Part shown: positions 21,782-23,265 of the stretch, one piece after another
How the letters are laid out: every line of letters begins with the position of its first letter
How positions within the stretch are numbered: position 1 is the stretch's first letter
Sequence record: NC_048071.1
DNA: 40,060 bases
Source of the DNA: Escherichia phage IMM-002
Strand: one strand, 5' to 3'
The notes under the pieces: model-generated
The model's database searches: none
Told to the model about the DNA's origin: nothing
Seen by the model: only the letters and a program-made list of their open reading frames with translations
Made by a program: the position numbers and the translations under genes

Positions 21782-21804
21782 ACTAAACTATCACTATAGG
21801 GAGA
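21782..21804 (+). promoter_or_regulatory. Phage RNAP promoter (phi10-equivalent), best match to consensus
   Basis: CTAAACTATCACTATAGGGAGA, +1 about 21799. Confidence 0.9.
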
Positions 21805-21907: not shown

Positions 21908-22957
21908 ATGGCAAACGTACCGGGTCAGAAAATTGGTCAGAACCAAGGTAAAGGCAATACCAATACCGACCAGCTCGCACTGTTCCTGAAGGTCTTCGCT
22001 GGTGAAGTCCTGACCGCTTTCACTCGTCGTTCCGTTACTGCTGACAAGCATATTGTCCGCACCATTCAGAACGGTAAGTCCGCACAGTTCCCGGTCATGG
22101 GTCGCACCTCTGGTGTGTATCTGGCTCCGGGTGAGCGCCTGAGCGATAAGCGCAAGGGCATCAAACACACCGAGAAGGTTATCACCATTGATGGTCTGCT
22201 GACCGCTGACGTGATGATTTTCGACATCGAAGACGCTATGAACCACTATGACGTGGCTGGCGAGTATTCCAACCAGCTCGGTGAAGCTCTGGCCATCGCT
22301 GCTGACGGTGCGGTACTGGCTGAGATGGCGATTCTGTGTAACCTCCCGGCTGCATCGGATGAGAACATCGCTGGTCTGGGCAAAGCGTCCGTACTGGAAG
22401 TTGGCACAAAAGCTGACTTGAACACTCCGGCCAAACTTGGTGAAGCAATCATCGGTCAATTGACCATCGCTCGTGCTCGTCTGACTTCCAACTATGTTCC
22501 CGCTGGCGACCGTTACTTCTACACCACGCCTGACAACTACTCTGCGATTCTGGCTGCTCTGATGCCTAACGCTGCTAACTACGCTGCGCTGATTGACCCT
22601 GAGACTGGCAACATCCGTAACGTAATGGGCTTCGTTGTGGTTGAAGTTCCGCACCTGACTCAGGGTGGCGCTGGTGAGACCCGTGGTGATGACGGTATCT
22701 CCATTGCTTCAGGTCAGAAACACGCATTCCCAGCGACTTCCAGCACTACCGTTAAGGTCGCTCTGGACAACGTTGTGGGCCTGTTCTCTCACCGTTCTGC
22801 TGTGGGTACTGTTAAGCTGCGTGACTTGGCGCTGGAACGTGACCGTGACGTCGATGCTCAGGGCGACCTGATTGTCGGTAAGTACGCGATGGGTCACGGT
22901 GGTCTGCGTCCTGAAGCAGCAGGCGCACTGGTTTTCACAGCGGCGTCAGCGGGTTAA
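21908..22957 (+). CDS. 10A: Major capsid protein (10A)
   Basis: 349 aa; TNQGKG, LALFLKVFAGEVLTAF, GKSAQFPV, HTEKVITIDGLLTADV, EDAMNHYDV, SAILAALMPNAANYAALIDPE, NVMGFVVVEVPHLT, HRSAVGTVKLRDLALER, KYAMGHGGLRPEAAGA nearly identical in pattern to T7 gp10A. Confidence 0.97.
   Translation: MANVPGQKIGQNQGKGNTNTDQLALFLKVFAGEVLTAFTRRSVTADKHIVRTIQNGKSAQFPVMGRTSGVYLAPGERLSDKRKGIKHTEKVITIDGLLTADVMIFDIEDAMNHYDVAGEYSNQLGEALAIAADGAVLAEMAILCNLPAASDENIAGLGKASVLEVGTKADLNTPAKLGEAIIGQLTIARARLTSNYVPAGDRYFYTTPDNYSAILAALMPNAANYAALIDPETGNIRNVMGFVVVEVPHLTQGGAGETRGDDGISIASGQKHAFPATSSTTVKVALDNVVGLFSHRSAVGTVKLRDLALERDRDVDAQGDLIVGKYAMGHGGLRPEAAGALVFTAASAG
22930..22936 (+). other. Candidate -1 programmed ribosomal frameshift heptamer G-GTT-TTC
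   Basis: Heptamer lies in the 10A frame 21 nt before the 10A stop; the -1 frame is open from here to 23220. Confidence 0.5.
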
Positions 22958-23220
22958 CGACCTTTAAGGCCCTCTCTACAGAGGGTCCTTCCTTAGAGAC
23001 TTACAGTTCTACGGTGGGGACCAGCTTGAAGGTTGACTTCCCTGAGCTTTCAGACGTTACCGATTGGTCGCTGCTTGAGGTGACTACGCCTGATGGTGTT
23101 AGTTACTCCCGTAGAACCAACAGTCTCTACTTCAAGGCCACCTCTGGCGTGGAAGGTCTGGTGATTGTTGGGTATGACGGTTCGCCTGTGCGTTCCTTCA
23201 ACGTATCTTTCACAAACTAA
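22936..23220 (+). CDS. 10B: Predicted C-terminal extension of minor capsid protein 10B (reached by -1 frameshift from 10A)
   Basis: -1 frame open for about 95 codons past the slip site and ending just before the terminator; no independent RBS for the 68-aa track ORF 23014..23220. Confidence 0.5.
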   Translation, partial: HSGVSGLTTFKALSTEGPSLETYSSTVGTSLKVDFPELSDVTDWSLLEVTTPDGVSYSRRTNSLYFKATSGVEGLVIVGYDGSPVRSFNVSFTN

Positions 23221-23225
23221 TTGAA

Positions 23226-23265
23226 ACCCCTTGGGTGCCTTCGGGTGCTTGAGGGGTTTTTCGTT
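23226..23265 (+). terminator. Rho-independent terminator (Tphi-equivalent)
   Basis: AACCCCTTGGGTGCCTTCGGGTGCTTGAGGGGTTTTTCG closely resembles T7 Tphi (AACCCCTTGGGGCCTCTAAACGGGTCTTGAGGGGTTTTTTG). Confidence 0.85.

What the first reader, a model, noticed from the sequence alone, without database searches (positions are those of the whole stretch)
22930..23220. Probable -1 programmed frameshift producing a long 10B capsid extension
The heptamer G-GTT-TTC sits in the 10A frame near the end of the major capsid gene, and the -1 frame stays open for about 95 codons to 23220, just before the Tphi-like terminator. T7 makes a minor capsid protein 10B this way; as I recall the T7 slip site has the same heptamer. 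The extension here is longer than in T7 (about 53 aa) and could be a surface decoration domain.
Basis: partly seen in the sequence, partly recalled or inferred. Interest (0 to 1): 0.45.

Follow-up and report, generated by a model that had tools for sequence, protein, structure and literature searches.

The report
Frameshifted capsid protein with Ig-like tail
This T7-like phage almost certainly makes a second, longer version of its main capsid protein when ribosomes slip back one base near the end of the gene, which adds a small antibody-like domain to the outside of the head; the mechanism is well known and a few related phage records already annotate it.

Summary
G-GTT-TTC lies at 22930-22936 in the frame of capsid gene 10A (21908-22957, 349 aa), on the same Val-Phe codons as the T7 slip site. 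The -1 frame is open from 22915 to a TAA at 23218-23220, just before a strong Tphi-like terminator. Slippage would give 10B = join(21908..22936,22936..23220), 437 aa and 46.1 kDa.

In 56 of 56 related IMG/VR loci an in-frame NGTTTTC is followed by a -1 frame open to the end of a conserved domain, although the linkers differ. GTT-TTC never varies in 51 distinct sequences. No start codon or Shine-Dalgarno site is conserved. The only GTG would cut off a predicted beta-strand.

The extension is a disordered linker of about 20 aa followed by a 74-aa Ig-like beta-sandwich. It has no Pfam match, belongs to PHROG 7473, and is unrelated in sequence to the T3 Big_2 tail and the T7/K1F tails.

This is a new member of a known kind. 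GenBank records for Citrobacter phage CR8 and Escherichia phage Peacock already annotate this domain as a frameshifted 10B, while most other records examined call a separate small ORF.

Two side findings: a hairpin conserved 20-30 nt downstream of the slip site, and cassette-like swapping of 10B tails.

The parts
21908..22957 (+). Gene 10A, the major capsid protein (349 aa, 36.6 kDa), read in the 0 frame
   Evidence: ORF list. Pfam Gp10A-like PF21703, E = 1.2e-105. Shine-Dalgarno AGGAG, -7.3 kcal/mol.
22930..22936 (+). Slippery heptamer G-GTT-TTC (Val342-Phe343), the proposed site of the -1 slip
   Evidence: Sequence. Same heptamer at the homologous codons of T7. NGTTTTC is in frame in 56 of 56 related loci: 53 G, 2 C, 1 A. 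GTT-TTC is invariant in 51 distinct sequences while the third position of all 15 preceding codons varies.
22915..23220 (+). Open -1 frame: 101 sense codons plus TAA, closed upstream by TGA at 22912-22914. 10B = join(21908..22936,22936..23220), 437 aa, 46.1 kDa
   Evidence: Translation.
22936..22995 (+). Linker of 10B (extension residues 1-20, HSGVSGLTTFKALSTEGPSL). Its first 7 codons overlap the 10A tail
   Evidence: AlphaFold2 pLDDT below 50. Length and sequence vary between clades but no stop ever appears. No ATG, GTG or TTG inside it.
22996..23217 (+). Ig-like beta-sandwich domain (extension residues 21-94, seven strands)
   Evidence: AlphaFold2 pLDDT about 88-90. Foldseek best PDB match is the lambda gpV C-terminal Ig-like domain 2L04, E = 8e-4; the N4 capsid decoration protein 9E99 also matches. 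PHROG 7473, E = 5e-37. Variable sites by codon position 11/4/30, which indicates purifying selection.
22966..22990 (+). RNA hairpin AAGGCCCUCU-CUAC-AGAGGG(U)CCUU inside the linker coding region, 29 nt 3' of the heptamer and 8 nt 3' of the 10A stop; role unknown
   Evidence: -13.6 kcal/mol, z = -3.0. A hairpin sits at a similar position in all three main clades. In the KP32-like clade it is 18 bp, 98.7% paired, with 2 pairs showing compensatory changes.
23223..23262 (+). Tphi-like transcription terminator directly after the 10B stop. It contains CCCC at 23227-23230
   Evidence: Fold of -25.2 kcal/mol, z = -5.35. Terminator scan. Identical to the K1F terminator. In T7 a CCCC in Tphi contributes to frameshifting (PMC5009743).
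21782..21804 (+). Phage-polymerase promoter of the phi10 type upstream of gene 10 (ACTAAACTATCACTATAGGGAGA)
   Evidence: Read directly from the sequence and compared from memory with the T7 consensus ..CACTATAGGGAGA. Not tested further.

Best explanation
Proposed mechanism. Gene 10 is decoded in two ways. Most ribosomes read the 0 frame to TAA at 22955-22957 and make 10A (349 aa). A minority slip one base backwards on G-GUU-UUC: the A-site tRNA-Phe re-pairs from UUC to UUU, and the P-site tRNA-Val re-pairs poorly. These ribosomes continue in the -1 frame to TAA at 23218-23220 and make 10B (437 aa). 10B is the whole HK97-fold capsid protein up to Phe343, then a flexible linker of about 20 aa, then a 74-aa Ig-like beta-sandwich. 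10B co-assembles with 10A, so a fraction of capsid subunits display the Ig-like domain on the outside of the head, probably as a weak adhesin or decoration.

Shown here: the slip site, the open frame, their conservation, the lack of an initiation signal, and the predicted fold.

Inferred: that slippage actually occurs, how efficient it is, that the domain faces outward (by analogy with T7, where the 10B C-terminus is the display site), and any binding function.
For: - The heptamer is the same as the experimentally established T7 site and sits on the homologous codons.
- An in-frame NGTTTTC followed by a -1 frame open to the end of the domain is present in 56 of 56 IMG/VR relatives. They span four lineages whose linkers run 24-39 codons from the slip site to the first conserved residue and whose 0-frame stops lie at different distances.
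- GTT-TTC never varies in 51 distinct sequences, although Val is four-fold degenerate and GTT is only 11 of 28 Val codons in this gene. The third position of all 15 preceding codons does vary.
- The -1 ORF has no ATG. GTG 23014 has a background-level Shine-Dalgarno score (-2.9 kcal/mol) and TTG 23026 a weak one (-5.6), against -7.3 to -12.6 for the neighbouring structural genes. Candidate starts sit at different places in different lineages. In KP32 isolate 194 and in EcpYZU01 (locus L013, assignment inferred) the only candidate lies after the invariant G-x-S-x-K residues.
- Predicted strand 1 (residues 21-26) and the tblastn and PHROG conservation extend upstream of the GTG.
- The domain is under purifying selection: variable sites 11/4/30 by codon position.
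- In the same genus, a GFP fusion to the K1F frameshifted g10b gives viable fluorescent phage (PMC6277420). Mass spectrometry proved -1 slippage at TTTTCA in Kvp1 (PMC2579914).
- Ig-like tails added to phage structural proteins by frameshifting are a recognised pattern, T3 10B included (PMC5009743).
Against: - There is no protein-level evidence for this phage or for the SH4-like clade. The SH4 virion proteomics listed only annotated ORFs, and 10B was not among the annotated ORFs.
- The CR8 note 'matches in mass spectrometry' could rest on peptides shared with 10A.
- No relative was found with the domain fused in frame to the capsid gene, which would have been independent proof.
- Third-position bias in the linker is weak (2/1/6 in the SH4-like clade, 9/6/9 in the KP32-like clade).
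- No stimulatory structure sits at the canonical 5-9 nt spacing.
- TTG 23026 has a weak Shine-Dalgarno-like GGUGGGG upstream.
Confidence: 0.85

Rival explanations
1. The downstream ORF is a separate small gene (68 aa from GTG 23014, or 64 aa from TTG 23026). It would be translated by its own initiation and act as a free capsid-associated or decoration protein, which is how most GenBank records examined annotate it.
For: Gene callers and many records call a stand-alone 'hypothetical' or 'minor capsid' ORF of 54-87 aa. TTG 23026 has a weak Shine-Dalgarno-like sequence, -5.6 kcal/mol. Some lineages have an in-frame ATG in the linker.
Against: - The start position differs in every lineage. The ATGs that exist have weak or no Shine-Dalgarno sequence (+1.2 to -4.2 kcal/mol). 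In some genomes the only start lies inside the conserved domain.
- GTG 23014 would remove predicted strand 1, and TTG 23026 would remove the invariant G28 and S30.
- This reading does not explain why the -1 frame is open back to the slip site in 56 of 56 loci, or why GTT-TTC is invariant.
Confidence: 0.08
2. The longer protein is made by transcriptional slippage: the phage RNA polymerase adds or omits a base at the T run, rather than the ribosome slipping.
For: The outcome, a fused 10B, would be the same, and the conservation of the T-rich site fits either process.
Against: From my own knowledge, not tested here: the run is only four T, whereas known productive transcriptional slippage needs about 7 or more identical bases. 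In T7 the same site was assigned to ribosomal frameshifting (review PMC5009743).
Confidence: 0.03
3. The extension is a decaying remnant that is not expressed at a useful level, and the open frame is a historical accident.
For: One relative (L014, IMGVR_UViG_2974604219) has lost the 3' half of the domain together with the terminator, so the domain is dispensable at least there. From my own knowledge, T7 10B is non-essential.
Against: Domain substitutions are concentrated at third codon positions (11/4/30 and 18/13/35). The protein is conserved in 453 phage records across at least four genera. The AlphaFold2 model is confident.
Confidence: 0.03

Closest known systems
T7 gene 10 programmed -1 frameshift (10A/10B)
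   Same: Homologous capsid gene. Identical heptamer G-GUU-UUC on the homologous Val-Phe codons. The -1 ORF ends just before Tphi, and the terminator carries CCCC.
   Different: The T7 tail is 56 codons after the slip, has no Pfam match and, according to the review, is not Ig-like. The tail here is 94 codons and ends in a folded Ig-like domain. The slip site is about 290 nt from the terminator here, against about 200 nt in T7.
T3 / phiYeO3-12 10B (an Ig-like Big_2 tail added by -1 frameshift)
   Same: An Ig-like domain is appended to a T7-group major capsid protein by -1 frameshifting (PMC5009743; T3 record).
   Different: The T3 tail is Pfam Big_2 (E = 4.5e-10) and shows no sequence or profile similarity to this one. 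T3 has no GGTTTTC, and slippage there is reported at lysyl codons (PMC2579914).
Citrobacter phage CR8 10B and Escherichia phage Peacock minor capsid protein (GenBank annotations)
   Same: The extension domain is homologous (the CR8-type tail is 46% identical in the alignment; the Peacock tail is 95.7% identical) and follows the same heptamer. Both are annotated as joined -1 frameshift CDS.
   Different: They are different phages. CR8 belongs to another genus (Caroctavirus) and has a shorter linker. The supporting evidence appears only in record notes, not in the published genome announcements.
K1F g10b (type species of the same genus, Kayfunavirus)
   Same: Same slip site. The flanks are nearly identical up to the heptamer and again from the last codon and terminator onward. 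A frameshift product carrying a GFP fusion is tolerated by the phage.
   Different: The K1F tail is a 48-aa T7-type sequence with no Ig-like domain.
Ig-like C-terminal domains of other phage structural proteins (lambda gpV C-terminal domain, N4 capsid decoration protein)
   Same: Same fold class and a similar size, on the surface of virion proteins.
   Different: Only structural similarity (TM about 0.55, 16-20% identity). Those domains are encoded in frame or as separate proteins.

Membership tests
T7-type gene 10 -1 programmed frameshift (10A/10B) | Host gene is a T7-group major capsid protein | tested here: met
   Pfam Gp10A-like, E = 1.2e-105. The C-terminus aligns with T7 10A.
T7-type gene 10 -1 programmed frameshift (10A/10B) | Slippery heptamer G-GUU-UUC, phased in the 0 frame, a few codons before the 10A stop | tested here: met
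   22930-22936, phased on Val342-Phe343, 18 nt before the stop codon.
T7-type gene 10 -1 programmed frameshift (10A/10B) | -1 frame open from the slip site to a stop upstream of Tphi, and conserved in relatives | tested here: met
   Open from 22915 to 23217. Open in 56 of 56 related loci.
T7-type gene 10 -1 programmed frameshift (10A/10B) | Distal 3' stimulator that involves CCCC in the transcription terminator | tested here: inconclusive
   CCCC is present at 23227-23230 in the terminator stem. The T7 requirement is taken from PMC5009743.
T7-type gene 10 -1 programmed frameshift (10A/10B) | A longer capsid species carrying the junction peptide is present in virions | not testable with these tools
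   Requires mass spectrometry or SDS-PAGE. The published SH4 proteomics listed only annotated ORFs.
Ig-like domains appended to phage structural proteins by frameshifting | The extension adopts an Ig-like beta-sandwich fold | tested here: met
   AlphaFold2 seven-strand sandwich, pLDDT about 88. Foldseek matches the lambda gpV Ig-like domain, filamin repeats and Ig domains.
Ig-like domains appended to phage structural proteins by frameshifting | The sequence belongs to one of the recognised phage Ig families (Big_2, I-set, FN3) | tested here: not met
   No Pfam hit at E <= 0.1. Only distant profile matches to He_PIG, Big_2 and BACON repeat proteins.
T3-type 10B (Big_2 tail) | The tail is homologous to the T3 Big_2 domain and the slip occurs at lysyl codons | tested here: not met
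   No BLASTP hit; hhalign probability 0.3%. T3 lacks GGTTTTC.
PHROG 7473 (unknown function) | Significant match to the family profile | tested here: met
   E = 5e-37, covering profile positions 2-82 of 82 and extension residues 15-94.

The most novel reading that the evidence does not exclude
The conserved hairpin inside the linker coding region lies 19-30 nt 3' of the slip site. It is kept by compensatory changes even though these change the linker amino acids. It could be a previously undescribed cis-element that sets the 10A:10B ratio, for example as a distal frameshift modulator, a processing site, or a 3' mRNA-stabilising site just after the 10A stop. The non-Pfam Ig-like tail could be a swappable adhesin module that tunes where Kayfunavirus, Przondovirus and related phages stick. 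In that case the region between the slip site and Tphi would be a plug-in display cassette used in nature.
Probability: 0.3. Interest if true: 0.5.

Novelty: new member of a known kind. Interest (0 to 1): 0.27.

Why it matters
The practical value is mainly in annotation. The same Ig-like tail is present in 453 records of the phage collection. These include many Klebsiella, Escherichia, Salmonella and Enterobacter phages of the kind considered for therapy. Most of the records examined call it a free 'hypothetical' or 'minor capsid' ORF, so the true 46-kDa capsid species and its surface domain are missing from proteome searches and structural models.

Biologically, a fraction of capsid subunits would carry a displayed Ig-like domain. 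Such a domain could affect adhesion to host surfaces or mucus, immunogenicity and pharmacokinetics. It also marks a natural site that tolerates display of foreign domains.

The mechanism itself adds nothing new to what is known from T7 and T3.

Tried and rejected
- In-frame fusion search. I looked for relatives in which the domain is fused in frame to the capsid gene. There were none: all close homologues in the 5.8-billion and 1.84-billion protein sets are short called ORFs of 49-87 aa, and the long hits are generic Ig-repeat proteins.
- Pfam, PDB sequence and Rfam searches of the extension and region found nothing significant.
- The domain shows no homology to the T3 Big_2 tail.
- The codon-position test on the linker alone was weak (2/1/6 and 9/6/9), so I did not rely on it.
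- Literature. No paper held in the library reports 10B protein evidence for the SH4-like, KP32-like or CR8-like tails. The CR8 and Peacock genome announcements do not mention the frameshift. The original T7 papers by Condron et al. are not held.
- A second slip site at the stop codon (G-GGT-TAA) was considered and rejected, because it is not conserved in the other clades.
- The hairpin as a classical stimulator was rejected because its spacing is 19-30 nt rather than 5-9 nt.
- The Enterobacter IJM phage records were excluded because their capsid genes are fragmented, probably by assembly errors.
- L018 and L019 were chance matches to a short motif.

Full report
**What is in the sequence**

The window is a complete T7-group phage genome of about 40 kb (IMG/VR UViG 2974592685). 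By DNA similarity it belongs to Kayfunavirus. The closest whole genome is Escherichia phage Pisces (93.7% identity over 89% of the first 25 kb). The closest matches to the capsid region are Enterobacter, Citrobacter SH4 and Cronobacter Dev2 phages.

Capsid gene 10A is 21908-22957 (349 aa; Pfam Gp10A-like, E = 1.2e-105). Its last codons read CTG GTT TTC ACA GCG GCG TCA GCG GGT TAA. GGTTTTC at 22930-22936 is therefore phased G-GTT-TTC on Val342-Phe343.

The -1 frame carries a TGA at 22912-22914. It is then open from 22915 to TAA at 23218-23220. A slip on the heptamer gives join(21908..22936,22936..23220). That is 437 aa and 46.1 kDa, against 36.6 kDa for 10A.

Three bases after the 10B stop begins a 17-bp G+C-rich stem followed by a U run (23223-23262; -25.2 kcal/mol, z = -5.35).

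**Is it more than chance?**

The heptamer alone is not: there are 3 copies on both strands and 4.1 are expected. Its position and conservation are what count.

- T7 has the same heptamer on the homologous Val-Phe codons. That site is the established T7 shift site (review PMC5009743).
- I collected 57 related loci from IMG/VR with the extension as query. In all 56 with a recognisable capsid C-terminus, an in-frame NGTTTTC (53 G, 2 C, 1 A) is followed by a -1 frame that stays open to the end of a conserved domain.
- This holds across four lineages: SH4-like, CR8-like, KP32-like (Przondovirus) and PP81 (Pektosvirus). From the slip site to the first conserved residue they have 27, 24-26, 27 and 39 codons. 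Their 10A stops lie 12, 18 or 21 nt after the heptamer.
- In 51 distinct sequences, the third position of all 15 preceding codons varies. All six bases of GTT-TTC are invariant, although GTT is only 11 of 28 Val codons in this gene. This is selection on the nucleotide sequence, as expected for a slip site.

**Fused product or separate gene?**

Most of the GenBank records examined annotate a separate 64-87-aa ORF. The evidence goes against that reading.

- The -1 ORF of the window has no ATG.
- GTG 23014 has a background-level anti-Shine-Dalgarno pairing energy (-2.9 kcal/mol). TTG 23026 has -5.6. The neighbouring structural genes have -7.3 to -12.6.
- Across lineages the candidate starts sit at different positions. 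The ATGs that exist pair weakly or not at all with the anti-Shine-Dalgarno sequence (+1.2 to -4.2). In KP32 isolate 194 and in EcpYZU01 (locus L013, assignment inferred) the only candidate lies downstream of the invariant G-x-S-x-K residues.
- Conservation in tblastn and in PHROG 7473 reaches upstream of the GTG.
- The first predicted beta-strand (extension residues 21-26) is also upstream of the GTG.

The domain is clearly expressed, because its substitutions concentrate at third codon positions (11/4/30 in the SH4-like clade, 18/13/35 in the KP32-like clade).

The linker alone gives only a weak codon-position signal (2/1/6 and 9/6/9), as expected for a poorly constrained tether. I found no relative with an in-frame capsid-domain fusion, which would have been independent proof.

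**What the tail is**

AlphaFold2, run on a 17-sequence alignment, gives a disordered stretch over residues 1-20. Residues 21-94 form a confident seven-strand beta-sandwich (pLDDT about 88-90).

- The best PDB match is the C-terminal Ig-like domain of the lambda tail tube protein (2L04, E = 8e-4, TM 0.55). The list also contains filamin repeats, dystroglycan Ig-like domains and the N4 capsid decoration protein.
- In BFVD the only close match is the PP81 'minor capsid protein'.
- There is no Pfam match.
- A profile search of 1.84 billion proteins finds close relatives only as short ORFs. More distantly it finds He_PIG, Big_2 and BACON repeat proteins.
- The tail is unrelated in sequence to the T3 10B tail, which is Big_2. 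It is also unrelated to the T7 and K1F tails, which have no Pfam match.

**How it most likely works**

Shown here: the site, the frame, the conservation, the absence of an initiation signal, and the predicted fold.

Inferred: a minority of ribosomes slip -1 on G-GUU-UUC. The variants C-GUU-UUC and A-GUU-UUC in relatives suggest that the A-site Phe re-pairing from UUC to UUU is the core event. These ribosomes produce 10B, which co-assembles with 10A and exposes the Ig-like domain on a flexible tether on the capsid surface.

Outward exposure is argued from T7, where the 10B C-terminus is the display position (my own knowledge). It also fits the viable K1F g10b::gfp phage (PMC6277420). The efficiency is unknown.

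**Comparison with what is known**

The mechanism is that of T7 10A/10B. The idea of an Ig-like tail added by frameshifting is known from T3 and many other phages (PMC5009743).

The same domain is already annotated as a -1 frameshift 10B in two records. The Escherichia phage Peacock record gives it as a joined CDS. Pisces cites CR8 in a note. Neither the CR8 nor the Peacock genome announcement discusses it.

The virion proteomics of the nearly identical SH4 listed only annotated ORFs, and 10B was not among them.

This is therefore a new member of a known kind. Its main value is in correcting a widespread annotation error: 453 phage records carry the domain.

**Noticed on the way**

- Hairpin. 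A hairpin lies inside the linker coding region of the window (22966-22990; -13.6 kcal/mol, z = -3.0). Hairpins of different sequence occupy a similar position, 19-30 nt after the heptamer, in the SH4-like, KP32-like and CR8-like clades. In 30 distinct KP32-like sequences an 18-bp helix is 98.7% paired, against 35-52% for slid controls. Two of its pairs show compensatory A-U/G-C and C-G/U-A exchanges in 10 and 8 sequences. These exchanges also change the linker amino acids. The spacing is too long and too variable for a classical stimulator, and the role is unexplained.
- Cassette swap. The window and K1F are nearly identical up to the heptamer and again from the last codon through the terminator. 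In between they carry unrelated tails of 282 and 144 nt. The closest whole-genome relative, Pisces, has the CR8-type variant of the domain. The segment between the slip site and Tphi therefore behaves as an exchangeable cassette.
- Natural truncation. One relative (L014) has the 3' half of the domain and the terminator replaced by unrelated sequence. The domain can evidently be lost.

**Verdict**

My confidence that a frameshifted 437-aa 10B is made is about 0.85. The kind is known and interest is low to moderate.

Noticed in passing
window 22966-22990; also L022 and the KP32-like loci, columns 27-69 of alignment A2: An RNA hairpin lies inside the 10B linker coding region, 19-30 nt 3' of the slip site. 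It is present with different sequences in the SH4-like, KP32-like and CR8-like clades. In the KP32-like clade it is 18 bp, 98.7% paired, and two pairs show compensatory changes that also alter the linker amino acids. Its function is unknown, and it is too far from the slip site for a classical frameshift stimulator.
   Followed up: partly
window 22937-23217 compared with K1F L083:1666-1809: The window and K1F (same genus) are nearly identical up to the slip heptamer and again from the last codon, stop and terminator. In between they carry unrelated 10B tails (a 94-aa Ig-like tail and a 48-aa T7-type tail). The closest whole genome, Pisces, has yet another variant (CR8-type). The region between the slip site and Tphi looks like an exchangeable cassette.
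   Followed up: partly
L014 / L035 (IMGVR_UViG_2974604219_000001), from about locus position 2160: In this relative the 3' half of the Ig-like domain and the Tphi terminator are replaced by about 115 nt of unrelated AT-rich sequence. This is a natural truncation, which suggests the domain is dispensable.
   Followed up: partly
window 23227-23230: CCCC lies in the 5' arm of the Tphi-like terminator, about 290 nt 3' of the slip site. In T7 a CCCC in the terminator is reported to contribute to gene 10 frameshifting (PMC5009743). No pairing partner was identified here.
   Followed up: no
window 21782-21804: A T7-type late promoter of the phi10 type (ACTAAACTATCACTATAGGGAGA) lies between the scaffold gene and gene 10.
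   Followed up: no
L085, L086 (Enterobacter phages 03 and 04_vB_Eclo_IJM): The capsid genes in these GenBank records are split into several short CDS, probably through indel errors in the assemblies. They are among the best DNA hits to the window but are unreliable for frame analysis.
   Followed up: no
window 22937-22957 and homologous positions in all loci: The 10A C-terminal tail after the slip site is short and variable (TAASAG, SPAAP, SQPQQP, TAA, KAASA and others). The position of the 0-frame stop moves by 12-21 nt between lineages while the overlapping -1 frame stays open.
   Followed up: partly
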